Origin: a virus
Taxonomy: Duplodnaviria; Caudoviricetes
DNA: 63,991 bases
Strand: one strand, 5' to 3'
Virus record (IMG/VR): IMGVR_UViG_3300036780_000089
Coordinates: 1-63,991 of that record
Made by a program: the position numbers and the translations under genes
Notes under the pieces: model-generated
Database searches by the model: none
What the model saw: only the letters and a program-made list of their open reading frames with translations
Told to the model about the DNA's origin: nothing
In this document: in pieces, positions 1 through 18,174 of the stretch
Position numbering within the stretch: position 1 is the stretch's first letter
How the letters are laid out: every line of letters starts with the position of its first letter

Positions 1-1034
1 ATGGCGTAGTGCTCGCGCAGGTTCTCCTCGTGCCGCACCTCGAACCCGGTGTTGGTCATGATCGTCATGAGTTCACCGGGCCCTTCGAGTTCACCGTCCG
101 GGAACACGTACCGGTCGATGAAACCGCGGGTCCTGGCTTCCTCAAGGTTGTTCGGCCGGGTGATGCAGTGATTCAGCACCCGTGCGCCGGGCCGGATCTT
201 GTCGTAGAGGAACTTGAAGTAGCCGGGCAGGTTCGCCTGGCCGATGTGCTCGGTGAGTCCGATGGAACTGAGCGCGTCGAAGTTGCCCTCGGCCACGTCG
301 CGGTAGTCGCAGTGGCGTACCTCGGCGAGGTCGGTGAGGCCGCGTTCGACGATGGCCTTCTGCGCCCATTCGGCCTGCCGCTCGGACAGCGTGACGCCGA
401 GCGCCTTGACGCCGTAGTGCTGGGCCGCGTGCATGACCATGCCGCCCCAGCCGCAGCCGACATCCAGCAGGCGCATGCCGGGCCGCAGCCCGAGCTTGCG
501 GGCGACCAGGTCGAACTTGGTGTACTGCGCCTCTTCCAGGGTGGCCTGAGCTGTCGGGTAGACCGCGCAGGTGTAGGCCATGGACGGGCCGAGCACGTGC
601 TCGTAGAAGCGGTTCGACACGTCGTAGTGGTGCGAGATGGCGGTGGAGTCGCGCCGCTTGGAGTGCCGCCTGCCGCGTTGGTGGGATTCCTGTGGGGGCG
701 GCTTCACCGGCCACCACAACCGGGCGGCGAGAACCTTCCTGATCAAGCCGCCGCGCACGTCGGCGGGGATGTCCGCGATGCCGTTGAGCGGCAGGTTCAA
801 CAGCGTGGTCAGCGCGGTGTGCATGTCGCCGACGACTTCCAGCGAACCGCTCACGTAGGCCCGGGCGAAGCCGAGTTCACCAGGGGCGGACCCCAGGTGG
901 GACAGGGCGATCGGCGAACGCACCTCCAGTCGCACCGGCGCGTCGGCCGGGCCGCAACGGCTTCCGTCGTATGCGGTGAACTCGATCGGCATATCCGGCC
1001 CGACAACGCGGGCGAACACTTCGGCCAATCGCAC
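1..1034 (-). CDS. Cyclopropane-fatty-acyl-phospholipid synthase family SAM methyltransferase (BfaB/TmsB-like); runs off the window edge
   Basis: Not in the ORF track (no stop in window). GTG at 1034 with RBS GAGAGGAG. Reads MRLAEVFARVVG...HHYDVSNRFY...MAYTCAVY...LLDVGCGWGG...SIGLTEHIG, the hallmark cfa motifs. Confidence 0.9.
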   Translation of the reverse strand, partial: MRLAEVFARVVGPDMPIEFTAYDGSRCGPADAPVRLEVRSPIALSHLGSAPGELGFARAYVSGSLEVVGDMHTALTTLLNLPLNGIADIPADVRGGLIRKVLAARLWWPVKPPPQESHQRGRRHSKRRDSTAISHHYDVSNRFYEHVLGPSMAYTCAVYPTAQATLEEAQYTKFDLVARKLGLRPGMRLLDVGCGWGGMVMHAAQHYGVKALGVTLSERQAEWAQKAIVERGLTDLAEVRHCDYRDVAEGNFDALSSIGLTEHIGQANLPGYFKFLYDKIRPGARVLNHCITRPNNLEEARTRGFIDRYVFPDGELEGPGELMTIMTNTGFEVRHEENLREHYA

Positions 1035-1075
1035 GATCTGCTCCTCTCACTACCCTCGGCTCAACCGTTGAGTTT

Positions 1076-2479
1076 TCAGCTGTTGCGTACGCACTTGGCG
1101 TACAGGTCCGGCAGTCGTCCAGCCGGGTCGTATTCCTTTTTCAGCGCCTGGTAGGCGGCGCCGTTGTAGAGCCGGTCGAACTCGTCCCTTGAGTAGTAGG
1201 AATCCGAGTAGAGCGACTTGTGCCCGTCCAACTCGGTGACCTTCGCCTCGATCAACCGGTTGTAGTGGCCGTTGTCCTCGCCCGGCCGGTGCGGCACCGT
1301 CGACCAGAAGCCGACGTTCACGTACAGCCTGCCCGGCGCGAGCGGGTAGAGCGGCCACTGCTCCTGGGAGCGCAGCTTGAGCGGACACAGCCAGACCGGG
1401 CTGATGCCGATCTCGCGGTGGAAGAAGTCAAGGAACTCGGCGAGCCGCTCGACCGGCACCTCGACGTCCTGGATGACCGGTTCGTGTACGGGGGCGTCCA
1501 GGGAGCGGTAGAGCCGGTCGGACACCTTGTAGCGGCGATCCAGGGCGACGAGCTTGCGGTAGACGTCGGAGCGCAGGTAGCGCTTGGGCCAGAGCTTGCG
1601 CACCAGCGGCTGCTGCACACCGAACGCGCGTGAGCACCAGAACCAGTCGGTGTCCCAGCGCCACAGGTAGTCGTGGATGGTCAGGTAGTCGACCTCGCGC
1701 TCCGGGACGGACTTGTAGAAAATCTTCATCCCGGTGTAATCGCTGGTGTACGGCGCTTCGGTGACGTAATCACCGAGCGTGAGGTACGGACGCGGGTCGG
1801 GGTGGCCCGCGGTCTGATCGGCGGCGAACACGGTGCCGTCGATGAAGTCGACCGGCTCGCCCTGATAGCTCGCGTCCCGACAGATTTCGGCGATCGCCGC
1901 CGCGCATTCACCCGCGTCGGGGAACCGTACGTGGCGCAACCGGACGTAGGGCCGCACCCGCTCCAGTTCGATACGCAATCGCAATGAGTAGCCGAGGGTG
2001 CCGTAGGAGTTGGGGAAGCCCCGGAACAGGTCGGCGTGCTCACCCTCCGGAGTCGCCACCACGACCCGACCGTCACCGGTCAGGATTTCCGCTTCGAGCA
2101 GCGACTCGTGCGGCAGTCCGCTGCGGAACGAGGTCGCCTCGATACCGAGGCCGGCAACGGCCCCACCGAGGGTGATGGTCTTGAGCTGGGGAACCACGGT
2201 CGGCATGAGGCCGTGCGGGAGGGTGGCGGCGACCAGGTGCTCGTAGGTGGTCATCCCGCCGACGTCGGCGACGGCCGCGTCCGGGTCCACTCTCAGTACC
2301 GAGCCGAACTGGCTGACATCCAGGCCAGGGGCACCAGTGGGCTCCCGAAACCGGAACAAATTGGACGTCGGTTTGGCCAGCCTCACCGGCGAACCGGGCG
2401 GCAGCGCGGAGTACGCTGCCCGGAGCGTCGTCACGGCCGCGTGATGACTGTCCAAGCTCGGTTCCATTGCGGTACTCAT
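1076..2479 (-). CDS. FAD-binding oxidoreductase (BfaA/TmsA-like, 10-methyl fatty acid synthesis)
   Basis: VVPQLKTITLGGAVAGLGIE, FPNSYGTLGY, YLWRWDTDWFWCSRAFG, GHKSLYSDSYY; directly upstream of the cfa-like gene as in Rv3719-Rv3720-type operons. Confidence 0.88.
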   Translation of the reverse strand: MSTAMEPSLDSHHAAVTTLRAAYSALPPGSPVRLAKPTSNLFRFREPTGAPGLDVSQFGSVLRVDPDAAVADVGGMTTYEHLVAATLPHGLMPTVVPQLKTITLGGAVAGLGIEATSFRSGLPHESLLEAEILTGDGRVVVATPEGEHADLFRGFPNSYGTLGYSLRLRIELERVRPYVRLRHVRFPDAGECAAAIAEICRDASYQGEPVDFIDGTVFAADQTAGHPDPRPYLTLGDYVTEAPYTSDYTGMKIFYKSVPEREVDYLTIHDYLWRWDTDWFWCSRAFGVQQPLVRKLWPKRYLRSDVYRKLVALDRRYKVSDRLYRSLDAPVHEPVIQDVEVPVERLAEFLDFFHREIGISPVWLCPLKLRSQEQWPLYPLAPGRLYVNVGFWSTVPHRPGEDNGHYNRLIEAKVTELDGHKSLYSDSYYSRDEFDRLYNGAAYQALKKEYDPAGRLPDLYAKCVRNS

Positions 2480-2691
2480 GAGCACTGATGCTATTGGTCA
2501 GCGGCGTTTCGGTCATCGGATGACCATCCGACATCCGTGTGATCTCAGTGTCACCTGGTGGGAGCGAGTGCCCTGGGCACACAACCTTTGCCGCCCCACG
2601 GGCGTCTTGGAATGTGTAGGGCTTGGTGGATCGCCATCGGCGGCGCAGCCAGGAGCGGGCGCGCTGGACATTGAGAGCTAATGAGGAGCAC

Positions 2692-3972
2692 ATGCAGCAC
2701 GGCAACAGAGTGCAGGGCAGACACCGCGGTTTCACTTTTCGTCCGCTGACGGGCGCGCGCGCCCGCAGGGCGGTCATCGGTGTGGTCGGCTTCGCGGTAG
2801 CCGGTGTGATGCTCGCCGCATGCAGCTCCGGCAGCGGCAACGCGACCGGCGGCTCGGGTGGGTCCGGTTCGCAGAGCGCGCCCACCACGACCTCCGGTCC
2901 CCCGGTGAGCATCGCCATCACGCCGTCGGCCGCGGACGCGGCGGCGGTGAACCCGGGCACCCCGATCGTGGTGAAGGCGACCAACGGCACCTTGAAGAAC
3001 GTGACCGTGACCAACTCCAAGACCGGCACGGCCGTCACCGGTGCCTACTCCACGGACAAGGCGACCTGGACGTCGAACGTGGATCTCGGCTTCGGCGCGA
3101 GCTACGCGGTCGACGCGCAGGGTGCCAACCCGCAGGGCGCTCCCAGCGAGCAGAAGTCCACGCTGACCACGATCAACCCGTCGGTAAAGTCGTACACGAA
3201 CATGTTCCCGGCGCCCGCCGCGTACGCGGGCCCCGGCATCGGGGTCGGTATGCCGATCATCTTCCAGTTCTCCCACGCGGTGACGAACAAGAAGGCGGCC
3301 GAGGCCGGCATCACCATCACCACCACGCCGAGCCAGCCGGTCGGCTTCTACTGGATCTCCAGCACCGAGTTGGACGCCCGGCCGCAGAACTACTGGACGG
3401 CCGGCACGAAGGTGCACGTGGTCGCCAAGTTGTACGGCACCGATCTCGGCGGCGGCAACTTCGACCAGGAGGACCGGGACGAGACCTACCACGTGCACGA
3501 CGCCTGGGTCGCCAAGGCCGACGGCAACTCCGAGCAGATGCAGATCTTCGACAACGGCAATCTGGTCAAGACCATGAACATCAGCATGGGCAAGGACTCG
3601 ACGCCGACCTCGCTCGGGCCGCACGTGATCACCGACAAGAACCAGACCGTGCAGATGAACTCGTGCACCTACGGCGTCTGTCCGCCGGATCCGCGCGCCT
3701 ACAACGAGACCGAGTACTGGGCGGAGCGGATCACCAACGGTGGTGAGTTCGTGCACGAGAACCCGGACACCGTTGGCGTGCAGGGCCACAGCAACGTCTC
3801 GCACGGCTGCATCAACCTCAACCAGGCCGACGCGCAATGGTTCTTCACCAACCTCGGGGTCGGTGACGTGGTCGAGGTGACGAACTCGGGTGGGCCGACG
3901 ATCACACCCGGTGCCTTCATCGGCGACTGGGCGGTGCCGTGGTCCCAGTTCACCCCGGTGGCCACCGCCTGA
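2692..3972 (+). CDS. L,D-transpeptidase lipoprotein (Ig-like domains + YkuD)
   Basis: Lipobox LAAC; catalytic motif FVHENP...SHGCINL; RBS GAGGAG before ATG 2692. Confidence 0.93.
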   Translation: MQHGNRVQGRHRGFTFRPLTGARARRAVIGVVGFAVAGVMLAACSSGSGNATGGSGGSGSQSAPTTTSGPPVSIAITPSAADAAAVNPGTPIVVKATNGTLKNVTVTNSKTGTAVTGAYSTDKATWTSNVDLGFGASYAVDAQGANPQGAPSEQKSTLTTINPSVKSYTNMFPAPAAYAGPGIGVGMPIIFQFSHAVTNKKAAEAGITITTTPSQPVGFYWISSTELDARPQNYWTAGTKVHVVAKLYGTDLGGGNFDQEDRDETYHVHDAWVAKADGNSEQMQIFDNGNLVKTMNISMGKDSTPTSLGPHVITDKNQTVQMNSCTYGVCPPDPRAYNETEYWAERITNGGEFVHENPDTVGVQGHSNVSHGCINLNQADAQWFFTNLGVGDVVEVTNSGGPTITPGAFIGDWAVPWSQFTPVATA

Positions 3973-3996
3973 TCGATCCATTCCTGGCACGTAGCG

Positions 3997-4033
3997 GGGC
4001 CCGACCGGAGAACCGGTCGGGCCCTTCGGTTTT
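3997..4033 (+). terminator. Intrinsic terminator after ldt
   Basis: Perfect 12-bp stem GGGCCCGACCGG-AGAA-CCGGTCGGGCCC followed by TTCGGTTTT. Confidence 0.8.
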
Positions 4034-4117
4034 CCCACCTTGCTTCCCGGGCTCGAACGGGGTAAGAGCTGATAGGGGGCGGCTGGGCGAGGTATCGGGG
4101 TCAGCAGAGGGAGCGCC

Positions 4118-5116
4118 ATGGCGGTCCGGTTCCGGATACTGGGCAGTGTCGAGGCCGGCATCAACGGTGAGCTGGTTGATCTGGGCCCTCGGCAGCAGCA
4201 GTGTGTCCTGGTGGCGCTGTTGGTCAACGCGAACCGGCCGGTGTCCGGCGACGAGCTGATCGAACGGGCCTGGGGCGAGAGCCCGCCGCCCAGGGCGCGC
4301 AACACCCTGTACACGTACCTGTCCCGGCTGCGTCAGGCCCTGTCCGGCACGGACGAGGTGACCTTGCTGCGCAGGCCGGCCGGCTATCAGCTGGTCGTCG
4401 ACGAACAAGCCGTCGACCTGCACCTGTTCCGCTCGCTGACCGCGCGGGCGCGGGAAACGCCCGATCATGGCACCGCGGTCCGGTTGATCCGGCAGGCGCT
4501 TGACCTGTGGCGCGGCGAAGCCCTGCCCGGCCTGGACACGCCCTGGCTGCACGGGATCAGGGCGACCCTGCTCAAGGACCGGTTGGCCACCGAACTTGAG
4601 TACACCGACCTGGCCCTGGCCGGTGGCCGGCACGCGGATCTGCTGGCGACGCTGGCCAGCCAGACCGAGCAGCGGCCGCTGGACGAGCGGCTGGCCGGCC
4701 AGTTCATGCTCGCGCTCTATCGCAGTGGTCGGCAGGCCGATGCGCTCACCCACTATCAGCGCACTCAGGCCCGACTCGGCGATGAACTGGGTATCCGGCC
4801 GAGCGAACCGTTGCGTACCCTCTACCAGCAGATGCTCACCGCCGACCCGGCGCTGGCCGCACCGCGCACCGGGCCGGCGCCCGGCCGGGCCGGATCGGCG
4901 GGCGCGGAGCGGGGCGGGTCGGTGGGCGCACATCTCGCGGAGTTGCCGGCGCCACGGCAGTTGCCGGCCGCGCCGAGGGCGTTCGCGGGCCGGGCCGCGG
5001 AGATCGCGTTGCTGTCCAGGGCGATCGACGAGCACCCGGGCAACGTCAGCGGCACCGTGGTGATCTCCGCGATCGGCGGTGCCGGTGGGATCGGCAAGCC
5101 CACGCCCGAGTTATGA
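4118..5116 (+). CDS. AfsR/SARP-family regulator (wHTH + BTAD) truncated at the NB-ARC Walker A by prophage integration
   Basis: RFRILGSVE...LLVNANRPVS...ALDLWRGEAL...PLDERL...LYRSGRQADAL...PRQLP...FAGR; ends VVISAIGGAGGIGK then phage-derived PTPEL-stop. Confidence 0.92.
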   Translation: MAVRFRILGSVEAGINGELVDLGPRQQQCVLVALLVNANRPVSGDELIERAWGESPPPRARNTLYTYLSRLRQALSGTDEVTLLRRPAGYQLVVDEQAVDLHLFRSLTARARETPDHGTAVRLIRQALDLWRGEALPGLDTPWLHGIRATLLKDRLATELEYTDLALAGGRHADLLATLASQTEQRPLDERLAGQFMLALYRSGRQADALTHYQRTQARLGDELGIRPSEPLRTLYQQMLTADPALAAPRTGPAPGRAGSAGAERGGSVGAHLAELPAPRQLPAAPRAFAGRAAEIALLSRAIDEHPGNVSGTVVISAIGGAGGIGKPTPEL

Positions 5117-5121
5117 CACAC
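5072..5121 (+). other. attL (host B arm + AA crossover at 5096-5097 + phage P' arm)
   Basis: Sequence from 5091 on is identical to 63865 on; the right arm GCCCACGCCCGAGTTATGACACAC equals the attP right arm. Confidence 0.88.
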
Positions 5122-5174
5122 ACGTTACACAACTGTAACCTAGGGCCTGGGTTGACGCGTGACCTGGGAATCTC

Positions 5175-5504
5175 TCAGTGGCCGAGGCCGTGGCGCTCCC
5201 GGTCGCGGCGCACGTACGAGTGTGGGGTGATCAGGTGCGACGGGACGTAGTGCGTGATCAGCTCGGATGCGGCCTCGGCGTTCCGTGCCGGTAGTTGGTA
5301 GCTCACGCGGGCGAGCCATCCGCCGTCACCCCGCCTGGCCCACGCGTCGACCAAGCCGTGTACCTCGTGATCGAGTTCGAGGCCGCCCGGCGTGTCCCGG
5401 TAGATGTCGTGGACGTCGCGCGCCAACAGTCGGTGCACGTTCACCCAGACTCGGCGCGGTTCGTCCAGTTGACGGAACCATGACGGAGACACAGCCTCGA
5501 ACAT
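5175..5504 (-). CDS. Small hypothetical protein, probably LexA-regulated and leaderless
   Basis: 109 aa starting MFE; the start codon lies inside a perfect SOS box. Confidence 0.7.
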   Translation of the reverse strand: MFEAVSPSWFRQLDEPRRVWVNVHRLLARDVHDIYRDTPGGLELDHEVHGLVDAWARRGDGGWLARVSYQLPARNAEAASELITHYVPSHLITPHSYVRRDRERHGLGH

Positions 5505-5512
5505 GCGTTCGA
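5497..5512. promoter_or_regulatory. Actinobacterial LexA (SOS) box
   Basis: TCGAAC-ATGC-GTTCGA, exact match to TCGAAC-N4-GTTCGA; minus-strand TGTAAT 7 nt upstream of the ATG. Confidence 0.85.
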
Positions 5513-6448
5513 TTACACCACATCGTCACGCCTGAATTCGGCGCCAATCCGGTCGGGGAAGTGCCGTTCTAGCCGGTACTTGGCCCACAGTCGGGCGGCG
5601 TCGGTCAACGCTGCCCGGTGCGGCATCGGGCGGTTGTGCAACAGCCATTCCCACACCCCGAGCACTTCCACCGCGAACAGCGTCACGGCCGGTTCCGGCA
5701 TCGCCCCCCACGCGGGTGTACGCGCCGCCCACCGCTCCGCGTCCAGCGGGGAATGCCCGGCGCTGATGAGTCGGATCACGAGAAACGCGGCATCCACCCA
5801 CGGCGCGGCCCGACGCGACCACGCCCAATCGATCAGCCGCGCGCGGCCACCGTCGATCATGATGTTGAGCGGCTGTACGTCGGTGTGGGCGAGGCTGTCA
5901 CCGCGCATGATGCTGATCGCGGCGGACTCGGCGTCATACCCGTAGATGAGAAGATCCCGTGTCCACGGGTCGAGATCAGGCGGGGTGTGGTTCAGCAACC
6001 GTTGCCATGCGCCTAGCCGTTCCCACTGGTCGGCGAAACTGGGCAGTTCGACGGGCGGGCAGGGTGTGAGCGTCACCTGTACCTCTGTGACCGCCGTGAT
6101 GATCAGCGGCAGATCAGCCGACCCCGGCCCGATATCCGCGTGCCGACCCGGTACATGCTCGAACCCGAGTAGCAGCCACCCAGCCGCCTCTACCTCCCAG
6201 AGCATCCGGGGCGCGACCGTGACCGGCAAGTAGCTGTTCACCCGAGCCTCGGTCCGATGGGTGACCGCGTTCGCCGAGTCGAGCTGAACGCCTTTCACGA
6301 ACACGCGTCCGGTGGCCGTGGTCAGCGACGCCGTGAAATCGGCATTGATCCCGGCGGACGCGTGCTCCACGCGGGAAACCTCCCCGCAACGCTCGACAAT
6401 GGCATGCCAGGCGTCGCCGGGGAGGTCTCTCAGGGCAGGATTGGTCAC
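5513..6448 (-). CDS. Aminoglycoside-phosphotransferase/kinase-like protein
   Basis: GRVFVKG, LGFEHVPGRHAD, LAHTDVQPLNIMI, LIDWAW; GTG at 6448 overlaps the upstream stop (GTGA). Confidence 0.85.
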   Translation of the reverse strand: MTNPALRDLPGDAWHAIVERCGEVSRVEHASAGINADFTASLTTATGRVFVKGVQLDSANAVTHRTEARVNSYLPVTVAPRMLWEVEAAGWLLLGFEHVPGRHADIGPGSADLPLIITAVTEVQVTLTPCPPVELPSFADQWERLGAWQRLLNHTPPDLDPWTRDLLIYGYDAESAAISIMRGDSLAHTDVQPLNIMIDGGRARLIDWAWSRRAAPWVDAAFLVIRLISAGHSPLDAERWAARTPAWGAMPEPAVTLFAVEVLGVWEWLLHNRPMPHRAALTDAARLWAKYRLERHFPDRIGAEFRRDDVV

Positions 6449-6912
6449 GCGTCGCAGCTTAGTTTTCCGCCCTGGCCACAGTTCGTGCAGCCGCCATGGC
6501 ATTGCGAGCACTTACCCGACGCCTGCGCCCACAGTTCCTCGTTGACGACGAATCCCGCGCCCCGCATGGCTTCTACCGTGGGGTTCAGCATCGCGCCCGC
6601 GTCGACGGGTGGCGTGAATTCCTCGGGTTCGTGGTGAAGGAATCGGCCCGCGACCCGCTGACAGAAGATCGCATACTCGGCGGTGTTCAGGATGAATGTA
6701 TGCCACGCGACGTCAACAGACTTGGACGGCCGTAGCCGCCCTCCGGGATTGTCAGCACAGGTTTTGATGAACGCCAAGGCTTGATCAAGAATGGCCTCGG
6801 CGTAGTCCTGCTCTACCCCCTCGTTGGCCACGATTTGCCTTACCAGGCGGTCAAACACTTCCGGGCGTAGCAGAGATCGCCCGACTGTGAGAACTTCCAT
6901 GGTCGACGTCAT
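6445..6912 (-). CDS. Glycine-rich-domain (GRDP-like) protein with Cys-rich C-terminal tail
   Basis: PSKSVDVAWHTFILNTAEYAIFCQRVAGRFLHHEP motif; tail CSQCHGGCTNCGQGGKLSC. Confidence 0.75.
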   Translation of the reverse strand: MTSTMEVLTVGRSLLRPEVFDRLVRQIVANEGVEQDYAEAILDQALAFIKTCADNPGGRLRPSKSVDVAWHTFILNTAEYAIFCQRVAGRFLHHEPEEFTPPVDAGAMLNPTVEAMRGAGFVVNEELWAQASGKCSQCHGGCTNCGQGGKLSCDA

Positions 6913-6971
6913 CGACTTGAATCCTTTCCTACGGGGGGTTGAGTCCGAATGTCAGCCGCGCGCAACCTCGG

Positions 6972-7277
6972 TTACGCGATCACCCGGCAGCTTGCGACGA
7001 CGGGGCCGACGTGGCGCGCGTGCCGCGTGGTCTCGGTCTCGATTTGCTTGCCTGCCGGGCGCACTGTGTTCGCAAGCGTGGTGCACGGCACGCACAGGGG
7101 ACGGGCGACGGTCCGCGCCATGGCGTCCGGGTCGGGCGTGCATACCTCGCCGTGTGTGTCGACGTCGGGCGGCCGGTTGGTCGTCGGGTCCACGGCCACG
7201 ACGGTCACACACTCCAGACAGAACGTGAATGATCTACCACACGAGTAGCAACCGGCTATCCCGCTGACCACGTCCAT
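6972..7277 (-). CDS. Cys-rich hypothetical protein (leaderless)
   Basis: CxxC pairs; TACATT hexamer 6 nt before the ATG. Confidence 0.6.
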   Translation of the reverse strand: MDVVSGIAGCYSCGRSFTFCLECVTVVAVDPTTNRPPDVDTHGEVCTPDPDAMARTVARPLCVPCTTLANTVRPAGKQIETETTRHARHVGPVVASCRVIA

Positions 7278-7470
7278 GGGTGCAATGTAGCAGCGGACAC
7301 GTGACCAGTCTGCTACAGACGGTAGCGAAGTGATTTGCTACTCGTACGCGTAACGGCACACGCACCGTAACCGACACATACCCTTGAACCGCGCGCAGAA
7401 AACCACCCCGGACCCCGGTGGCCCGCGCGGTTCCACCGTCGCTTTCTATGCGCTACCCAGGGGAAACACC

Positions 7471-8220
7471 GTGACCACGCCGCCCATGCAACCGCCCACG
7501 CCGACACCTACCGAGCCGCCGACCCGTCGCCGTCCGTGGTGGCGCCGCTGGTGGGCCATCGTCTTGTACGTGGTCGTCGTCGGACTGATCATTGACGTTG
7601 CGACCCTCGGCCACGGCCAGCCGAGCAACACCGCCGCCCACACGGCGCCCTCGGCGTCGACTAGCGCCCCGGCGGCCACAACCGCCACGCCGAACACCGC
7701 GACGCCCGTACGGGCCACTGGACGGCCAGCGACGACCACCACGCACCCGGCCGCGCCCAACGTCCCCGCCGACACGCTCACCGGCTACGGCGCCACCGTC
7801 GCCCGGTGGAACGCGACACACCACGCGGACCCGAGCTATGCGGGCGGTTCGGCGTACAACCCGGACCCGTCGCTACCCCCGGCCAACGGGCGCACAGCGG
7901 ACACGTACGTGGCCGTTCAGCCGCTCGGCGGGCGCGTCACCGACTACATGATGAACATGGCGGCCACGTCGTTGTCCGGCGCGGAAACCGTTGTCGCACA
8001 CGAATTCCCCGCCGACACGCACGTGTTGTGGACCCAACCGCTGGCCGGATGCACCATCGTCGAATACGCCAGTGCCACCGTGCGCGGCGCCCTCGGCAAC
8101 ACCGACACCGGGGACGCGCAAGTGGTGTACGCCAGCCAGCAGCCCGGCGCGTCCACTGTGGATGAAGCGACGTTCAGCAACATTCCCGGCGCCGCACCGG
8201 ACCCGGCCGCATCCTGCTAG
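7471..8220 (+). CDS. Membrane-anchored extracytoplasmic protein
   Basis: RRPWWRRWW followed by one TM helix, Pro/Thr/Ala linker and a globular C-terminal domain. Confidence 0.8.
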   Translation: MTTPPMQPPTPTPTEPPTRRRPWWRRWWAIVLYVVVVGLIIDVATLGHGQPSNTAAHTAPSASTSAPAATTATPNTATPVRATGRPATTTTHPAAPNVPADTLTGYGATVARWNATHHADPSYAGGSAYNPDPSLPPANGRTADTYVAVQPLGGRVTDYMMNMAATSLSGAETVVAHEFPADTHVLWTQPLAGCTIVEYASATVRGALGNTDTGDAQVVYASQQPGASTVDEATFSNIPGAAPDPAASC

Positions 8221-8248
8221 CATCCCCGCTAGCGCCGGTTCGCACGAA

Positions 8249-8292
8249 CACCTCGGCCCCCGTCTCCTGTCACGGATTCGGGGGCCGAGGTG
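8249..8292. terminator. Bidirectional hairpin between convergent genes
   Basis: Perfect 14-bp stem CACCTCGGCCCCCG / CGGGGGCCGAGGTG. Confidence 0.75.
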
Positions 8293-8305
8293 CGTCGGGG
8301 CCGAG

Positions 8306-8509
8306 CTACACGGCGGCGAGCGCCTCACGGTTCCGCGCGTCGCAATCGGCCTGAGCGGCGCCGTAGCCGGTGGCCTCGAACAGCACCGGCAACGGGACGG
8401 TGCCTCGGCTGTTCGCGTGCGCCACCCACGCCGCGTGATCCACGACGCGGTGAAACTTGCTCGGGTTGGTGTTCGAGTGCGGTTGCAAGATCACGAATGA
8501 CATGGTCAT
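8306..8509 (-). CDS. Hypothetical protein
   Basis: ATGA-coupled to the GNAT gene; MTMSFVILQP... Confidence 0.55.
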   Translation of the reverse strand: MTMSFVILQPHSNTNPSKFHRVVDHAAWVAHANSRGTVPLPVLFEATGYGAAQADCDARNREALAAV

Positions 8510-8898
8510 CCTCTCGTCATGAGCGCGCGGACGAAATCGGCGCCGGGTTGCGTGTAGCGCTGTGCGTACGGGTCCACCGGCCATCGGGTCATGGCCTCAC
8601 GGACCAGCCGCGTTCCGATACCCCGGCGCTGCCGGTCTTCCCGCACGATCACCAAGACGTTGCCCGCCTGTTCGTACGGCGGGAAGTCCATCGGGTAGTG
8701 ATTCAGGATGCCGACCAGCACGCCGGACGCGTCCCGGAACAACAGGCAGTCAATGTGAGCGCCCGGCCCGAACCCGTCGGACATGTCGCCCCGGAAGTAG
8801 CTCACACCGGGCTGCCCGGTCGGCGGGTACTGCTCGGCCTGCGATTCCCACGTGAACCACGTGTCACCCTGGAATACCGGCAACTCTCTCACTGCCAT
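8506..8898 (-). CDS. GNAT-family acetyltransferase
   Basis: Acetyl-CoA motif A VIVREDRQRRGIGTRLV; YTQPGADF. Confidence 0.8.
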   Translation of the reverse strand: MAVRELPVFQGDTWFTWESQAEQYPPTGQPGVSYFRGDMSDGFGPGAHIDCLLFRDASGVLVGILNHYPMDFPPYEQAGNVLVIVREDRQRRGIGTRLVREAMTRWPVDPYAQRYTQPGADFVRALMTRG

Positions 8899-8901
8899 GG
8901 C

Positions 8902-9498
8902 TCACCGCCCCCGCTGGTCGTCGGAGAACTGGACGCCGGGCACGGTGCGCCGGGGAGCGCGGGCGCGGCCCGTGGTGGCCGAGCTGGACGCCCGCGCGGG
9001 CGTCTTACTGGTCGCCGCCGTGTCGAGCGCCGCCGAGCTGACCGCCGCCAGGTGGTGACTTGCCGCCGCCGAGCGGGCCGCTGAACGCGCGGGCGTCGCC
9101 GTACGCGTGGTGGCCTTGCCCGTCGCCTTACTGGCCGCTGGCTTGCCCGTGGCGCGCTTAGTCGGCGCCGGGGCACGCCGAGGCCGCATGAGTGGCGCGC
9201 CGAGCTGTGTCGCCACGTTGACGGCCACGTTGTACGCGCCCGCGTAGCGTCCGGCCGCCACCTTGGCCCACGGCTCATAGTCGGTGTCCAGCACCGCGAA
9301 CCCGCCGATACGTTCGGTCACCGCGCACGTGTGCCCACTGACGATGCGCACACCCACCGTCGTGCCGATCACGATCACGTCCCCGTCGCCGATGCTGTCC
9401 GCGTCGTCGGCTACCGCGTATGGGTCCGCGTCATCGGCGGCCGTGACCGTGTGGACGGCGGTATGGCCGATGGTGCGGGTTTCGATAGATCTCGACAT
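8902..9498 (-). CDS. Hypothetical protein with basic Ala/Lys/Thr low-complexity tail
   Basis: RBS GGAGAG; tail ATGKPAASKATGKATTR. Confidence 0.65.
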   Translation of the reverse strand: MSRSIETRTIGHTAVHTVTAADDADPYAVADDADSIGDGDVIVIGTTVGVRIVSGHTCAVTERIGGFAVLDTDYEPWAKVAAGRYAGAYNVAVNVATQLGAPLMRPRRAPAPTKRATGKPAASKATGKATTRTATPARSAARSAAASHHLAAVSSAALDTAATSKTPARASSSATTGRARAPRRTVPGVQFSDDQRGR

Positions 9499-9500
9499 GG

Positions 9501-10031
9501 TCAGCTCTCCACACTCGGGTCTCCGGTGACATGCTCGGCGATTTCCCGTGCGGCTTGGTCTCGGTCGTCGTACACGTTGAGTACTTGCGGGTTGTACTGG
9601 TACCGGCCATCGGGCATACCGTTACTCCAGTCGTGCGCCTCGGCGACGTAGGCAGGGCCGGTGCTGGTTTCGATTTCCCACATGTTGCCGATCGTGCGGC
9701 CGTATTCGTCGACAAACGTTGTTTGCGTCGCGGTGACTTCCGTAATTCCGCTGCTGCGCATTGCAATCCCTTTGCTGTGTTCGTGGACCGGTGAGCGCCT
9801 ATTTACGGCGTCGTCACCGTGCGATGGTCGGATGATGTCGGCTACGGCGGAACGCGGGAACAAGCTTTGTCCGCCCCGGCCCGGTTCGCGGCCGACAGCA
9901 TGGATTTCCGGGTGTCGGGTAAGCCATACGCCCGCTGAGCGGATGACGCGCGCCCGGTCACCCGAGTAGCCGAGCATCACCCCGATTTCGTATGTCGTGA
10001 TCGTGTCCGGTGCCGGTGCCTGATCGGACAT
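9501..10031 (-). CDS. Hypothetical protein; N-terminal HTH-like part, possible internal start at 9761
   Basis: RBS GAGGGAG; TITTYEIGVMLG...GREPGRGGQSLF; internal AAAGGG-ATG. Confidence 0.6.
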   Translation of the reverse strand: MSDQAPAPDTITTYEIGVMLGYSGDRARVIRSAGVWLTRHPEIHAVGREPGRGGQSLFPRSAVADIIRPSHGDDAVNRRSPVHEHSKGIAMRSSGITEVTATQTTFVDEYGRTIGNMWEIETSTGPAYVAEAHDWSNGMPDGRYQYNPQVLNVYDDRDQAAREIAEHVTGDPSVES

Positions 10032-10113
10032 GGTGTTGCGCTCCCTCGGTTCGGCGTGCGGCCTCGCGTTGAGCGGACGCTACCGCCCCCGCGTGAGGCG
10101 CGAACCGAGGCGT

Positions 10114-10359
10114 TTAGACGTCTGTCGGCCTGACCGTTTCCAAGTGGCGGCCGATCACCTCGGCGTGCGTGACCTGGTCGGGTCGGACGTCCTCCTGTAG
10201 CTCACCGTCGACATTGACGCCGAGCATGGAACCCATGCCGGTGACGGTGCCGGTGTGCGTCTTGCCGCCGCGTGTGAACGTCACCCGCATACGTAACGTG
10301 TGCGAGCCCTGAATGCCGCGCCACACGGCGTTGAGCGTGAGCAGGGACCAACCACTCAT
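10114..10359 (-). CDS. Small hypothetical protein (SH3-like beta-rich)
   Basis: RBS GAGGAG; 81 aa. Confidence 0.6.
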   Translation of the reverse strand: MSGWSLLTLNAVWRGIQGSHTLRMRVTFTRGGKTHTGTVTGMGSMLGVNVDGELQEDVRPDQVTHAEVIGRHLETVRPTDV

Positions 10360-10516
10360 GATCGTTTACTCCTCGGTAGGAAATGCCCGGCGGGGGCCGA
10401 GCGATGCCAGTATGTAGTACCGTACTACGGGCAGGCAATCGAGGGCCGGTCCCGGACTGGTAACAGGCACCGCGACCGGGCACGATGAACCCAGCGAACC
10501 GAGGGAGCACACCACC

Positions 10517-10891
10517 ATGACCGTCACGCACACGCCCACATTCCAGGACACCGACGACCACTTTCTCGGGTCGGGCGCGCTCGACTTTCACCCCTGGTAC
10601 ACGAACATTTCGACGACCGACGCCACCGACACCGAATCGTGGACACTCACCTTTACGGACCCGGCCGACGAACCGGCGGACGATGTGGCCGCGACAGAAC
10701 GCACCATCACCCACGCTGACATCATGCGCGCCGTTGGGCAGATTGCGGACGGGACGGTGGAAATGCGGGAGGAATACCGGGAGGAATGCCAACTGTTCGA
10801 GTCCGGCGAACTGGACGCGGTCGACTTTGACGCAATCTCGGCGGACGTCGTCATTCAGGTGGCCGCGTTCGGGAAAGTCGTCTACGGCTGA
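10517..10891 (+). CDS. Acidic phage hypothetical protein
   Basis: RBS GAGGGAG; C-terminal DFDAISADVVIQVAAFGKVVYG motif typical of phage early proteins. Confidence 0.75.
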   Translation: MTVTHTPTFQDTDDHFLGSGALDFHPWYTNISTTDATDTESWTLTFTDPADEPADDVAATERTITHADIMRAVGQIADGTVEMREEYREECQLFESGELDAVDFDAISADVVIQVAAFGKVVYG

Positions 10892-11194
10892 ATGAGCGCC
10901 AACGACACAGGCAACGTCACGCCGACAACTAGTTCGGCTCTTGCCCACACGTTGCGACGGGCCGGAATCATGACCGTGCCCACCCGATTGCGGGAAGGTG
11001 TCTACGTGACCGGCGGCGACCCCAACCGGCGCGGCCCCGTGTCGGTCAGCGTGCAAATCGACCACGACCAGCGCCACGCCGACAATCTCGCCGCCGCTGT
11101 GCGAGACGTGCTGGACGGCGCCGGTCTCGTGTACCAGTACAGACAAGACGACGACGGTTACCACTCGTTCACCGTGGAAGGACGCCGAGGCTAA
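10892..11194 (+). CDS. Hypothetical protein
   Basis: Abuts previous stop; followed by a hairpin at about 11211-11240. Confidence 0.65.
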   Translation: MSANDTGNVTPTTSSALAHTLRRAGIMTVPTRLREGVYVTGGDPNRRGPVSVSVQIDHDQRHADNLAAAVRDVLDGAGLVYQYRQDDDGYHSFTVEGRRG

Positions 11195-11259
11195 CCGCAC
11201 ACCGTCTCCCGGCCCCTTGCGCGCTAAGCGTGGGGGGTCGGTCTCGTGTCCGCCCAGGG

Positions 11260-11520
11260 TCACCAGCGCCGCCGATCCACGATCAGTAGAAACTCGTCGA
11301 CCGGCACGCACAACGTGTTCAGCATGTCGACCACGCGGACGGCCGCCGTGTGCATGTCAAGCTCACGGTGTTGGCCCGCGTACGTGTGCGCCTCGACCCA
11401 CCGGTTAGCGCTGCCCCCGTCGAACGCGCGACACTCCCACCGATGCACGTAGCGGCCGTACCGGTCGCGGACGTCGTCGGGTATGTCCTCGGCCTCGGCC
11501 AACCGCCGAGCCGCGCTCAC
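11260..11520 (-). CDS. Hypothetical protein
   Basis: GTGA-coupled to the upstream gene. Confidence 0.55.
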   Translation of the reverse strand: MSAARRLAEAEDIPDDVRDRYGRYVHRWECRAFDGGSANRWVEAHTYAGQHRELDMHTAAVRVVDMLNTLCVPVDEFLLIVDRRRW

Positions 11521-12167
11521 GACGCGGCAGGGACGTAGCGCAACGCCGCCTGTAGCCGCTCGTCCAGGTCGGCATGCGCCAACGGGCCGTCTTTGTCCGC
11601 CGCTTCCCGTAGCAGCGGCATACCCGACTCAATCGAGGCCATGACGTCCGCGTGCGTTGCCGGTTTCCCCTCGGCGAACCACAAGGTTTCGATCGGCTCA
11701 CCGACGTTGAACAACACGCCACCGTCCACAGTGAACGACGTGTGCGTTCGCGTCCGCCACACCAGCGCGACGCCCGGATTCCGTGCGATCATGACGCCGG
11801 GCGGGTCCACCTTGTCCACTGGTAGCCCGCGCTCTCGCCGGATCATGCTCGGCCTGGTCAGGAACGGACAGAACCGCGCCGAGTACACCGCACAATCCGT
11901 GTGACACGGCGGCTCGGCCGAGACGCGGTTGACCGCGCACATGGGACCGATCACGAACGCCGCGTCATCCATGCGCGGTTGCCCGCACACCCAACACAGC
12001 CCGAACCATAGGGCTTTGTGTAGGCGTCTCTCGTCGGCCACCCGGAAATCGGGCGTGTCGTTGTTGCCGTCTGACCGGTCCACAAAGTACGGGATCGGCC
12101 GCCCTTTCCGGTCACGCGGCAACGCCCGGATATGTCCCGGCATGTCTCGCGTCTTGAACATGATCAC
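11517..12167 (-). CDS. Conserved phage Zn-binding hypothetical protein
   Basis: LCWVCGQP...GPMC...EPPCHTDCAVYSARFCPFL. Confidence 0.75.
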   Translation of the reverse strand: MIMFKTRDMPGHIRALPRDRKGRPIPYFVDRSDGNNDTPDFRVADERRLHKALWFGLCWVCGQPRMDDAAFVIGPMCAVNRVSAEPPCHTDCAVYSARFCPFLTRPSMIRRERGLPVDKVDPPGVMIARNPGVALVWRTRTHTSFTVDGGVLFNVGEPIETLWFAEGKPATHADVMASIESGMPLLREAADKDGPLAHADLDERLQAALRYVPAAS

Positions 12168-12387
12168 TTCCTAGGACTGTTGATCTCCCGTGCCACTTGT
12201 CGCGTCCACGACGTCGCCGACACCGACACCGTGACATTGGCGACCGCTAGCGCCGCCCACATCTCGGCCGCCGCCGCGTGGCCGTGCATCATTGCTGCGA
12301 CCGTGCTCCATACGGCCGCGAATGCTGAAATAGACGCCGATACCCACATCACGCCCAGTCGTGCGCGGGTCGCGGTACTGCGCCGCG

Positions 12388-12663
12388 TCATGTCGTTGCG
12401 GTGTAAGCGGTTCCCGCACCCCCATGCGACCGGAACCGCGCGAATCGTGCATAGATGTCGTTCATGGCGACCGCCAGATATCGCGTCTTGTCCTGACTGG
12501 ACAGAGACTCGTCGACCACGATCACCGGCCGACCGTCCACAATGTCCCAACCCGCGCCCCGGAAACCCAAGTCCGTGAACAGTACGCGCGGAACGTCGCC
12601 GCCATCGCCGCCCGTGCCGTCACCGTCGCTGGTGTCATCTCTTGGTCTCAACTTGTGAGCCAT
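12388..12663 (-). CDS. Small protein resembling the N-terminal half of ImmA/IrrE metallopeptidases, no HEXXH
   Basis: GFRGAGW...PVIVVDESLSSQDKTRYLAVAM; RBS GGGAGA. Confidence 0.45.
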   Translation of the reverse strand: MAHKLRPRDDTSDGDGTGGDGGDVPRVLFTDLGFRGAGWDIVDGRPVIVVDESLSSQDKTRYLAVAMNDIYARFARFRSHGGAGTAYTATT

Positions 12664-12716
12664 GGTGTCAGTTCTCCCGGTGTCCGATGACTAAGAACTG
12701 AGTAAGAACGCGTGCG

Positions 12717-13079
12717 CTACATAGGCGCCCCCTGGCATCGCAGCGGGCCGCCGGTCGCGAACACTTCCGACACCAGGCCACGCCACCCTTGCGCCGACAG
12801 GTCGGACACGGGTTCACCGCGTTGGTAGCGGCACGCCGTCTGTTGCGACACTGTGAGCAGGGCGCCGAGGCGCGCTTGCCGATATGCCCCCTCGGCCTGC
12901 CATCGGTCGCACACCAGCGTGATCAGTTCGGTTGGGGTGCCCAGATAGGCGAGACCTTCCACGGTGGACGGTGGGTCAACACCGGGCGGACCGGTGAGCT
13001 TGAACCATCGTCCGTCGTCCGCTCCGTACACCGCGCGCCACGGAATCGCGGCAGGCCCTTGTGGTGTCCGGTCGTCCAC
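12717..13079 (-). CDS. Hypothetical protein
   Basis: RBS AGGAG before GTG; 120 aa. Confidence 0.55.
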   Translation of the reverse strand: MDDRTPQGPAAIPWRAVYGADDGRWFKLTGPPGVDPPSTVEGLAYLGTPTELITLVCDRWQAEGAYRQARLGALLTVSQQTACRYQRGEPVSDLSAQGWRGLVSEVFATGGPLRCQGAPM

Positions 13080-13258
13080 GTTCCGCGCTCCTGTACATGT
13101 CGTCCCGCCTCGCCGCCGTTTCCGATGGGACGCGCTAATGAGTACGTGCGCGTCACCTCTCCGGCGGCGAGATATCAGACCCTATGTACCCAGAGCAGCG
13201 TACGGCAACCGTCATCCCACGATTGTGCGAAATTTACTGTCAGTACCACGCGCGCTTG

Positions 13259-13642
13259 CTACTCCTGGTGATCTTTGTTGCGCGCTGCCCGGCGCACCCG
13301 CCGACCGTATTCCTCGGCCGTGTCGTGTGAAATGTGTTCATCTACGATCACCGTGGCGCCCGGCCGCCACAGTTGCGGGAATCCCAGTTCACGCGAACAC
13401 GCGTTCAACACTTGTTCATAGGACACGTCCAGCGCGGCGGCCATCGTCTCAATGGTTTTCGGCTTGGGATACTCTTTGATTCCCCGAATAACGAATGCGC
13501 TCAATTGCGCCTGGCTCAAGTCCTCTAGGCCACGTTCCCAGGCGCGTTTGAGTAGTTTATTGAACGACATTTTATCCCGCGTTTTGACGTAGTCAATCAG
13601 CTTGCCCAATGGCAGGGTGTTCACGGGATCGGCGTCGGACAT
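13259..13642 (-). CDS. Immunity repressor-like HTH protein
   Basis: LSQAQLSAF...YPKPKTIETMAAALDVSYEQV; divergent from a Cro-like gene. Confidence 0.75.
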   Translation of the reverse strand: MSDADPVNTLPLGKLIDYVKTRDKMSFNKLLKRAWERGLEDLSQAQLSAFVIRGIKEYPKPKTIETMAAALDVSYEQVLNACSRELGFPQLWRPGATVIVDEHISHDTAEEYGRRVRRAARNKDHQE

Positions 13643-13752
13643 GCTCTCCCCTAGCTAGGTGGTGGCCGTACTCAGCATTGAGTATCTAACCACCAGGCGT
13701 CTTACGCCAGACATCTACCGGCATCATCACCACACCGTGTGATAAACGGCGC

Positions 13753-13782
13753 TTGACGTGCGGCGATAGACAGACCTACGGT
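13753..13782 (+). promoter_or_regulatory. Candidate early rightward promoter
   Basis: TTGACG-N18-TACGGT; CGATAGACA occurs in the spacer and again about 50 bp downstream. Confidence 0.5.
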
Positions 13783-13862
13783 GACCCACACACGCCAACG
13801 GGCGGTGACCAGGGACGATAGACACTCTCCCGACCCTCACCGCGCACGACCACGGGGCGACC

Positions 13863-14132
13863 ATGGCCGTGTACGTCTCACTTCGCAGCGTGAGCGCTCT
13901 CCGAGACCGGATGGCCCTCACGCGGACCACACAAGCGGCGCTCGCACTCGCCGCACATACGAGTGCCGCTCGCATTTCACAAATTGTGTCGGGTCGCGTC
14001 ACGACAATTACGGTTGCCGCTGCCGCCGCCATTGAGCTTGCTCTTGGCGTGCCGCGCGGGGCGCTTTTTGCCGTGCCCGAACCGCCCGACCTGGTACAGC
14101 CCTACGTCACCTCGCAACAAGGGGTGGCGTGA
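13863..14132 (+). CDS. Cro-like XRE HTH protein
   Basis: TTQAALALAAHTSAARISQIVSG...AIELALGVPRGALF. Confidence 0.8.
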   Translation: MAVYVSLRSVSALRDRMALTRTTQAALALAAHTSAARISQIVSGRVTTITVAAAAAIELALGVPRGALFAVPEPPDLVQPYVTSQQGVA

Positions 14133-14228
14133 ACACCCACGCCATGCGAGAGAAAGCCGTCTGATTCGCGCAGGGAATGCAAATTCATGCGGCGAATTCT
14201 CCACGCACACACATTCAAAGGGTGAGCG

Positions 14229-17106: not shown

Positions 17107-17265
17107 CCAGCACGGCGGAAGCGCTCGAATGTCCACGATGCCAACGCGGCGCCGAACTGTGGCCCTGTCCACGATGCGCCCGTGAGATGTGCTGGTGGTG
17201 TCTGTGGGCGCACGCCGACGATGCCCCTGACGACCCGACCGACGATGACAACGGGAGTCCCGACG

Positions 17266-18164: not shown

Positions 18165-18174
18165 CGCGGTCACC

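What the first reader, a model, noticed from the sequence alone, without database searches (positions are those of the whole stretch)
4118..5121. Serine integrase targets the Walker A codons of an AfsR-type SARP gene and leaves a clean DNA-binding-only regulator
Seen: the crossover AA (5096-5097) is the Lys codon of GAGGIGK; phage DNA adds PTPEL and a stop, giving a 332-aa wHTH+BTAD protein without ATPase/TPR. Known: small SARPs consist of just these two domains, and NB-ARC P-loop sequences recur in many paralogous regulators in actinomycetes. Inference: (i) integration/excision could toggle the host regulator between a signal-dependent full-length form and a signal-independent short form; (ii) attB is a conserved multi-copy motif, giving many potential sites across hosts.
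Basis: partly seen in the sequence, partly recalled or inferred. Interest (0 to 1): 0.75.

Follow-up and report, generated by a model that had tools for sequence, protein, structure and literature searches.

The report
Prophage splits regulator at ATPase motif
A temperate phage of a soil actinomycete sits exactly in the ATP-binding-loop codons of a large AfsR-type regulator gene, and related phages do the same in sister genes: a new target habit for a known kind of integrase.

Summary
ORF 4118-5116 encodes 332 aa: wHTH + BTAD, a linker, then ...GGAGGIGK + PTPEL + stop. Host DNA 1-5097 is collinear at 84-88% identity with five Pseudonocardiaceae genomes, and the match stops at 5097. Their genes run on as 946-953 aa SARP-NB-ARC-TPR proteins.

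The record is a single contig: attL, a 58,774-bp tailed phage, attP, then a 127-nt assembly overlap. attR is not in it. The attP dyad is centred on AA.

Among 11 integrated elements whose integrases are 48-55% identical to this one (the window included):
- 6 lie in NB-ARC Walker A codons. Four of these target genes are SARP-type, one TIR-type, one has a short N-terminus.
- 1 lies in an ABC-ATPase Walker A.
- 4 lie elsewhere.

A 41%-identical metagenome relative also sits at an NB-ARC P-loop. The 17-nt P-loop DNA motif occurs 15-22 times per related genome.

Motif-directed integration is therefore well supported. The regulatory "toggle" is untested. The stub's folded part is a SARP domain, but it carries a low-confidence tail of about 85 aa. 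For AfsR, the isolated SARP domain is active in vitro, yet the NOD is reported essential in vivo.

The parts
1..4117 (.). Host chromosomal flank (Pseudonocardiaceae-like). It carries an FAD-binding oxidase gene (1076-2485, -) and an L,D-transpeptidase gene (2623-3972, +).
   Evidence: Collinear at 84-88% identity with L001-L005. Pfam domains.
3996..4025 (+). Terminator-like hairpin after the upstream gene. The SARP gene therefore probably has its own promoter in 4026-4117.
   Evidence: 1 site found; shuffles give a mean of 0.8, so the evidence is weak.
4118..5116 (+). Truncated SARP gene, 332 aa. It comprises wHTH (20-92), BTAD (99-240), a linker, the first NB-ARC strand with Walker A up to Lys, then 5 phage-encoded residues (PTPEL) and a stop.
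   Evidence: (residues 2-329 align to AfsR 24-338, E 5.8e-42).
5063..5131 (.). attL: host B arm, central AA (5096-5097), phage P' arm.
5098..63871 (.). One phage genome unit (58,774 bp). It encodes primase/polymerase, large terminase, portal, major head protein, tape measure and a repressor-like protein.
   Evidence: Repeat spacing of 58,774. PHROGs matches. Synteny with the G179 prophage.
61005..62612 (-). Large serine integrase, 535 aa (P0002).
   Evidence: Resolvase and Recombinase domains. Profile hits to the SPbeta and phiC31 integrases. YLRLSD is invariant in alignment A1.
62612..63838 (-). Open frame(s) of unknown function lying between the integrase gene and attP.
   Evidence: No Pfam or PHROG match.
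63836..63905 (.). Intact attP: an imperfect inverted repeat centred on AA at 63870-63871.
   Evidence: 21 of 30 symmetric matches against a background of 8.2 +/- 2.6.
63865..63991 (.). Terminal 127-nt copy of 5091-5217. This is an assembly overlap showing that the phage end joins the phage start.

Best explanation
The window is a soil-metagenome contig of a Pseudonocardiaceae-like bacterium lysogenised by a 58.8-kb tailed temperate phage.

The phage's large serine integrase (61005-62612, minus strand) recombined attP with an attB made of the DNA that encodes the Walker A loop (GGxGGxGK|T) of a ~950-aa AfsR-like SARP-NB-ARC-TPR regulator. Strand exchange occurred at the central AA, the first two bases of the Lys codon.

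Integration separates the SARP output domain, left as a 332-aa stub with a phage-encoded PTPEL tail, from its NB-ARC/TPR switch.

The integrase belongs to a clade in which Walker A codons of NB-ARC genes are the commonest target. These codons are highly conserved and present in many paralogues per genome. The most likely reason for the choice is a reliable and redundant landing site. The effect on the host regulator (loss of the switch, possibly an unregulated SARP stub, restored on excision) is a consequence rather than a demonstrated purpose.

Shown: the junction, attP, the integrase family, uninterrupted orthologues, and parallel insertions by relatives. Inferred: catalysis by this integrase, AA as the exact crossover, the existence of attR, and any host phenotype.
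For: Junction and attP.

Uninterrupted orthologues: 946-953 aa with Trans_reg_C + BTAD + NB-ARC + TPR and DNA reading ...GGCAAGAC(G/C).

Integrase family.

Parallel insertions with both junctions found:
- G179: TIR_2 5' half, NB-ARC/TPR 3' half, a ~61.7-kb prophage syntenic with this phage.
- G905: HTH_3 + SARP 5' half, NB-ARC/TPR 3' half.
- G923: SARP 5' half; 3' half called NB-ARC by tblastn, 40% to the L005 SARP, E 2.6e-81 (its Pfam NB-ARC score is below the cut-off).
- G833: ABC_tran Walker A.
(G905, G923 and G833.)

Parallel insertions with one junction found:
- G182. Its target is intact in G834 at 93% identity and is SARP-NB-ARC-TPR.
- G883.
- L082/L083.

Tally: 7 of 11 integrated close relatives lie in Walker A codons, 6 of them in NB-ARC genes.

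Free-phage attP cores resemble the P-loop DNA: L103 TTCGGCAA, L104 GGGCAAGACC, L085 GGCCAAGACC.

The G182, G905 and G923 phages have P arms identical at 37-39 of 42 positions. They occupy three different paralogues whose attB sites share only 33-38 of 52 positions.

The P-loop motif is multi-copy.
Against: - attR, attB and the 3' half of this particular gene were not seen. The assembly is one contig, and exact scans for the P arm found nothing in metagenome contigs or viral contigs.
- 4 of 11 close relatives integrate elsewhere, including the relative with the highest pairwise identity (G037, 55-56%), which sits in a REP-like intergenic repeat.
- Two phages of the G182 sublineage have other central dinucleotides (CA, TT) and other targets. 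P-loop targeting is therefore frequent but labile.
- No recombination assay and no expression data exist.
Confidence: 0.85

Rival explanations
1. Adaptive regulatory switch. Lysogeny converts a signal-gated AfsR-like regulator into a constitutively active SARP-only activator, and excision restores it. The phage thereby reprogrammes host secondary metabolism or development.
For: - The cut falls exactly between the output domain and the switch in 4 SARP-type targets: the window, G182/G834, G905 and G923.
- The folded part of the stub is a complete SARP domain, with pLDDT >90 over about residues 1-247.
- Passages of PMC10936776: the isolated SARP domain is more active in vitro than full-length AfsR, and NOD/TPR are inhibitory.
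- attL and attP coexist in the sample.
Against: - The same paper states that the NOD is essential for AfsR function in vivo.
- The same clade also hits TIR-type, short-N-terminus and ABC-ATPase P-loops as well as unrelated genes. This fits a DNA-motif preference better than a regulator-specific purpose.
- The stub carries a low-confidence tail of about 85 aa.
- No biosynthetic genes were seen next to the gene or its orthologue.
Confidence: 0.2
2. Anti-defence. The integrase clade homes on STAND (NLR-like) NTPase genes in order to knock out sensors that could act against phages.
For: - One target (G179) is TIR_2 + NB-ARC + TPR, an architecture like immune NLRs.
- Passages of PMC13581612 say many STAND clades are defence-associated and interspersed with non-defence clades.
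Against: - PADLOC models give only weak generic hits for 5 targets or halves: ThsB-like TIR at E 1.6e-5, plus TPR matches.
- 4 of the 6 NB-ARC targets among the close relatives are SARP transcription factors.
- Durrant et al. (PMC10083194, passages) report no enrichment of serine-recombinase targets in or near defence genes.
Confidence: 0.08
3. Assembly chimera. Host and phage DNA were joined by the assembler, and there is no integration.
For: - The record comes from a metagenome.
- It ends in a 127-nt repeat typical of a graph loop.
- attR was not found.
Against: - Host and phage share only 8 nt (TCGGCAAG) at the join, far too short for a 127-mer graph to bridge.
- The join lies exactly at the attP dyad centre.
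- It lies at the same codon pair used by six other NB-ARC insertions, three of which have both junctions in isolate or MAG contigs.
Confidence: 0.02

Closest known systems
Actinophage large serine integrases that integrate inside host genes (phiC31, phiBT1, TG1, R4, SV1, phiJoe, Bxb1)
   Same: - Domain make-up is the same: Resolvase plus Recombinase.
- attP is a short imperfect palindrome with a 2-bp centre.
- attB lies inside a coding sequence.
- The A1 profile matches the phiC31 integrase (E 3.4e-4) and SPbeta YokA/SprA (E 9e-9).
   Different: - Identity to any integrase in 50,697 phage records is at most 31.3%, and in the best full-length matches it is <=29.4%.
- Here the attB is a protein-motif-coding segment shared by many paralogues.
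- The target genes of the named phages are recalled from memory, not checked here.
Conserved-site and multi-targeting serine recombinases catalogued by Durrant et al. (PMC10083194, passages read)
   Same: - Distantly related recombinases converge on one conserved site within a gene family, for example a Mg-chelatase/ATP-dependent protease gene (12.4% of site-specific integrases) or a prolyl isomerase gene.
- Some clusters use several target gene clusters.
   Different: - No DUF4368 domain is listed for P0002 even up to E = 5.
- The integrases compared here are 46-77% identical, not >=90% as in that paper's multi-targeting test.
- NB-ARC or AfsR-like targets are not mentioned in the passages I read. 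The paper's supplementary target tables could not be opened.
Prophage or element 'regulatory switches' that split a host gene and restore it on excision (SPbeta in spsM; skin in sigK)
   Same: A serine recombinase and a mobile element interrupt a functional gene, and precise excision would rebuild it (abstracts of PMC5499854 and PMC5025042 seen in the listing).
   Different: - Those cases tie excision to sporulation. No host-programmed excision is known here.
- Here the 5' stub is itself a complete effector domain.
AfsR and AfsR-like large SARPs
   Same: - Residues 2-329 align to AfsR 24-338 (PDB 8k60, E 5.8e-42).
- Orthologues have the SARP + NB-ARC + TPR architecture.
- AfsR-like genes are multi-copy and enriched in Pseudonocardiaceae genera (preprint 10.64898/2026.09.02.748808, section 8).
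   Different: - The window's copy ends at the Walker A lysine.
- It is not the AfsR orthologue itself, and its regulon is unknown.

Membership tests
Large serine recombinase (phage serine integrase) | N-terminal resolvase-type catalytic domain with the active-site serine | tested here: met
   Pfam Resolvase at E 7.9e-10. YLRLSD, with S29, is invariant in the 5-sequence alignment A1.
Large serine recombinase (phage serine integrase) | Recombinase domain (PF07508) | tested here: met
   E 8.8e-7 and 29.6 bits against a cut-off of 21.1.
Large serine recombinase (phage serine integrase) | Zinc-ribbon / coiled-coil domain | tested here: inconclusive
   Zn_ribbon_recom scores only E 0.18 and 12.6 bits, below the cut-off, at residues 336-368. 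C341 and C364 are invariant in A1.
Large serine recombinase (phage serine integrase) | attP is an imperfect inverted repeat around a 2-bp centre, and attL and attR share only a short core | tested here: met
   21 of 30 symmetric matches at AA. The att table of relatives agrees.
Large serine recombinase (phage serine integrase) | Catalyses attP x attB recombination without host factors | not testable with these tools
   Needs a recombination assay.
Large SARP (AfsR-like) | OmpR-type wHTH plus BTAD (the SARP domain) | tested here: met
Large SARP (AfsR-like) | NB-ARC NTPase plus C-terminal TPR | tested here: not met
   Absent from the window's ORF because of the truncation. Present in the uninterrupted orthologue L005. 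The gene was therefore a large SARP before insertion, and its product is now of small-SARP size.
Prophage regulatory switch (active lysogeny) | Prophage interrupts an otherwise intact host gene | tested here: met
Prophage regulatory switch (active lysogeny) | Precise, host-programmed excision restores the gene without lysis | not testable with these tools
   Only the coexistence of attL and attP junctions is seen.
Multi-targeting serine recombinases (Durrant et al.) | DUF4368 domain, or >=90%-identical recombinases found in more than 3 target gene clusters | tested here: not met
   No DUF4368. The integrases compared are 46-77% identical.

The most novel reading that the evidence does not exclude
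A lineage of actinophage serine integrases has evolved to read the DNA that encodes the Walker A loop of STAND/NB-ARC proteins. Each lysogenisation then reversibly cuts an NLR-like protein between its effector domain (SARP DNA-binding domain, or TIR) and its nucleotide switch. This would release unregulated effector stubs, or silence the sensor, and so put host antibiotic regulation or immune-like signalling under phage control.
Probability: 0.2. Interest if true: 0.85.

Novelty: new variant of a known kind. Interest (0 to 1): 0.62.

Why it matters
- It shows a way for a site-specific integrase to gain many landing sites. The attB is the coding DNA of a protein motif that selection keeps nearly constant across paralogues and genera.
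- It offers a set of natural attP/attB pairs and new integrases for rare actinomycetes. These integrases are at most about 31% identical to those of cultured phages.
- It points to naturally occurring 'SARP-only' versions of AfsR-like regulators, the kind of de-repressed regulator that people engineer to wake silent antibiotic clusters.
- If the stubs are active, lysogeny would be a hidden variable in the secondary metabolism of Pseudonocardiaceae.

Tried and rejected
I laid no reads, so attB/attR/attP proportions are unknown.
- Sequencing runs. The look-up of sequencing runs listed four soil-metagenome DNA runs, one of them probably the source. No RNA holder was listed.
- attR of this element. 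An exact scan for the 28-nt P arm gave 0 hits in metagenome contigs and 0 in viral contigs.
- Phage identity. megablast of 40000-63866 against 50,697 phage records found no match.
- Wider taxonomic reach. The class-level sample gave 0 of 401 genomes at E <= 1e-70, and the tool warns that this blank shows nothing.
- Unresolved junctions. I could not resolve L081, L084/L092, L086/87/93/97/99, L088/95, L089, L090/91 and L105-L113. L084 and the L086 group carry GGCAAGACC-like cores, but I could not tell whether these are attP or junctions.
- G182's attL was not on its contig.
- Defence families. PADLOC gave no convincing match.
- Expression signals. The promoter scan found 0 sites. RNA folding of 5085-5185 gave z = -0.03, so there is no terminator-like structure after the stub.
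- Solved structures. A single-sequence PDB search with the integrase was blank. Only the profile search hit.
- Literature. Searches found no paper describing an attB in an NB-ARC or AfsR-like gene. Supplementary tables of PMC10083194, which may list such targets, could not be seen.

Full report
WHAT IS IN THE WINDOW

The ORF 4118-5116 (+) translates to 332 aa ending ...VVISAIGGAGGIGKPTPEL*. Pfam finds Trans_reg_C at 20-92 and BTAD at 99-240, and no NB-ARC or TPR. Residues 2-329 align to residues 24-338 of Streptomyces coelicolor AfsR (PDB 8k60, E 5.8e-42), ending at AfsR's GIGGVGKT loop. AA at 5096-5097 is the start of the AAG Lys codon.

The held 'genome' is this one contig, flagged as a virus record.

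The last 127 nt (63865-63991) are identical to 5091-5217, with a repeat spacing of 58,774 nt. The contig therefore reads: host flank, attL, one complete phage genome, attP, then the start of the phage again. A terminal overlap of exactly 127 nt looks like the k-mer overlap of a de Bruijn graph loop. That reading is my inference.

It means the sample held both the integrated junction and a phage-end-to-phage-start junction. The second could come from an excised circle, a replicating concatemer or a tandem prophage, and I cannot tell which. attR is not in the record.

IS THE JUNCTION REAL?

- Host DNA 1-5097 is collinear at 84.2-87.5% identity with five Pseudonocardiaceae MAG loci (L001-L005), and every alignment stops at 5097.
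- In those five genomes the gene continues to 946-953 aa. Their DNA reads ...GG(C/G)AT(G/C)GGCAAGAC(G/C)TC... in four of the five (GTC in place of ATG/ATC in L004), encoding GGAGG(M/I/V)GKTSLALHWAH.
- L005 has Trans_reg_C + BTAD + NB-ARC + TPR.
- In attP, the 30 nt on either side of AA (63870-63871) match as an inverted repeat at 21 of 30 positions. Across the window the background is 8.2 +/- 2.6, maximum 19.
- Host and phage share only TCGGCAAG at the join. That excludes a k-mer-driven misjoin.

THE PHAGE AND ITS INTEGRASE

PHROGs identifies primase/polymerase, large terminase, portal, major head protein, tape measure and a repressor-like protein.

The 535-aa product of 61005-62612 (-) has Resolvase and Recombinase domains. 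It also has a sub-threshold zinc-ribbon match. A five-sequence profile hits the SPbeta (E 9e-9) and phiC31 (E 3.4e-4) integrases in the PDB.

All 212 matching records among 50,697 phage records are below 60% identity, and the best listed are 29-31%. The phage DNA has no megablast match there.

DO RELATIVES USE THE SAME KIND OF SITE?

I searched three sets of genomes with the integrase.
- 401 genomes of the host family: four strong hits, G037, G179, G182 and G033 (49-56% identity).
- 147 genomes of G182's genus: six more, G883, G905, G889, G833, G866 and G923 (51-53%).
- 401 genomes sampled across the class: none at E <= 1e-70.

With the window, that makes 11 integrated elements.

Six of the 11 lie at the Gly-Lys codons of an NB-ARC Walker A.
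- The window: SARP-type target.
- G179: the 5' half is TIR_2 and ends GGTAGVGK+TKPGLRHRL*. The 3' half is NB-ARC + TPR. The ~61.7-kb prophage is syntenic with this phage. Intact paralogues of 851-857 aa exist in that genus.
- G182: attR plus an NB-ARC/TPR 3' half. Its orthologue in G834 is intact, 93% identical, with Trans_reg_C + BTAD + NB-ARC + TPR.
- G905: HTH_3 + Trans_reg_C + BTAD 5' half, NB-ARC + TPR 3' half, both junctions found.
- G923: Trans_reg_C + BTAD 5' half. The 3' half is 40% identical to the L005 SARP by tblastn (E 2.6e-81), although its Pfam NB-ARC score is below the cut-off. Both junctions found.
- G883: a short N-terminus with no Pfam domain, ending VISAVDGTAGVGK. The NB-ARC call here rests on motif resemblance only.
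(G905, G923 and G883.)

One of the 11, G833, splits an ABC-type ATPase at its first Walker A (GENGVGK|STLL). Both halves flank a ~59-kb prophage.

Four of the 11 lie elsewhere.
- G033: an FMO-like gene, at GGGCAA|GGCG.
- G037: a REP-like intergenic repeat beside a response-regulator gene, whose kdpE-like identity I read by eye. Junctions were inferred from arm similarity and a neighbouring intact repeat copy.
- G889: a Caa3_CtaG gene.
- G866: an adh_short gene.

In addition, two metagenome contigs, L082 and L083, apparently the same element, carry an integrase 41% identical. It lies 51 nt from an NB-ARC + TPR 3' half that begins at GK|T.

Three contigs with intact palindromic attP sites have P-loop-like cores: L103 ...TTCGGCAA|AACC, L104 ...GTGGGCAA|GACC, and L085/L096 ...TGGCCAA|GACC.

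THE CROSSOVER

Where both attP and attB can be compared, the shared core is:
- TCGGCAAG for the window;
- GGCAAGACGA for G179;
- only GGCAA for G833;
- only AAGG for G037.

If the crossover position relative to the arms is conserved, the intersection is AA. This agrees with the dyad centre of the window's attP.

G889 and G866 carry CA and TT at that position in both of their junctions, and they have new targets. This is what one expects if the central dinucleotide must match between attP and attB, which is an established property of serine integrases (recalled, not tested here).

ONE SITE OR A MOTIF?

The targets are different genes.
- The NB-ARC parts are only 34-40% identical to the window's orthologue.
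- The N-termini differ: SARP, HTH + SARP, TIR, or none.
- The G182, G905 and G923 phages have integrases 73-77% identical and P arms identical at 37-39 of 42 positions. Yet their attB sites share only 33-38 of 52 positions.

The motif is multi-copy.
- GGNGGNRTNGGNAAGAC occurs 17, 16, 18, 15 and 22 times in five related genomes. The reversed-pattern control occurs 0, 1, 0, 0 and 0 times.
- In G005, 6 of the 18 sites are NB-ARC-type (GKT[WSA]L.L.WA). Against the window B arm plus the L005 B' arm they score 49/52 for the orthologue and 38-45/52 for five paralogues. The other 12 sites score <=36/52 and are ParA-like and other P-loops.

In a 27-row integrase tree:
- the window pairs with G179 (support 88/88);
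- these sit in a five-row group with G182, G037 and L104 (83/80);
- L082 lies outside that group.

P-loop use is therefore spread over the clade rather than confined to one twig. The deeper forks are unresolved, and I did not test ancestry.

CONSEQUENCES FOR THE HOST GENE

An AlphaFold2 model of the 332-aa product (22-row alignment, mean pLDDT 83.6) is confident (>90) for about residues 1-247. It is poor (<50) for 253-282 and 311-332. The stub is thus a complete SARP domain with a probably disordered tail, not a tidy two-domain protein.

From passages of PMC10936776:
- full-length AfsR, a form lacking the TPR, and the SARP domain alone all bind the afs box and activate afsS in vitro;
- the isolated SARP domain is the most active;
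- NOD and TPR are inhibitory until ATP binds;

From the preprint 10.64898/2026.09.02.748808 (abstract and section 8): AfsR-like regulators are multi-copy, enriched in genera such as Amycolatopsis, Lentzea and Saccharothrix, and 58% are not next to biosynthetic clusters.

The window's gene and its orthologue have ordinary neighbours: L,D-transpeptidase, FAD oxidase, an S53-type peptidase and PNPOx.

An active constitutive stub is therefore possible but not shown. I put it near one in three, and an adaptive 'toggle' near one in five.

VERDICT

The best-supported reading is a genuine serine-integrase insertion at the Walker A codons of an AfsR-like gene. The integrase clade often uses this motif as attB, but not always.

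Integration into conserved gene sites, convergent targeting and gene-splitting prophages are all known (PMC10083194 passages; abstracts in the listing). An attB made of NB-ARC P-loop codons was not found in my literature searches. The supplementary tables of PMC10083194 could not be opened and might list such targets.

I file it as a new variant of a known kind.

Noticed in passing
G833:C159 (L151 about 1300-1450; L164 18088-19881): A related prophage of about 59 kb splits a two-domain ABC-type ATPase gene at its first Walker A (GENGVGK|STLL). The clade's P-loop habit therefore reaches beyond NB-ARC genes.
   Followed up: yes
G889:C1 (L150, L167) and G866:C13 (L152, L168): Two phages of the G182 sublineage carry CA and TT instead of AA at the attP centre. 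They sit in a ctaG-like gene and a short-chain dehydrogenase gene: natural retargeting that goes with a changed central dinucleotide.
   Followed up: yes
G037:C2 (L066 about 15860-15940; about 75.7 kb into the stitched region): The relative with the highest pairwise identity to the window integrase is integrated in a REP-like palindromic intergenic repeat (GGTGCC...GGGCACCTTCATGACGC). The repeat is present in at least two further copies nearby.
   Followed up: partly
window 5513-6511 (-): An APH-family phosphotransferase-like gene (Pfam APH, E 1.4e-6) is the second ORF inside the prophage next to attL. The G182 prophage region has two related copies (30-35% identity).
   Followed up: no
window 16554-16595 and 16742-16783: An exact 42-nt direct repeat 188 nt apart within the phage early region.
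   Followed up: no
window 40909-45180 (+): The 1,423-aa tape measure protein also matches an endolysin PHROG family over residues 889-1380.
   Followed up: no
window 28000-30000 and 43000-44000: G+C drops to 0.54-0.59 against about 0.65-0.70 elsewhere. One dip lies at and just beyond the 3' end of a pectin-lyase/tail-spike-like gene (27241-29118), the other inside the tape measure gene.
   Followed up: no
L085 / L096 (metagenome contigs), about 390 nt upstream of the integrase: An almost perfect 18-nt inverted repeat flanks ACTGGCCAAGACCGAC. This is a textbook attP of a more distant relative (38% identity).
   Followed up: partly
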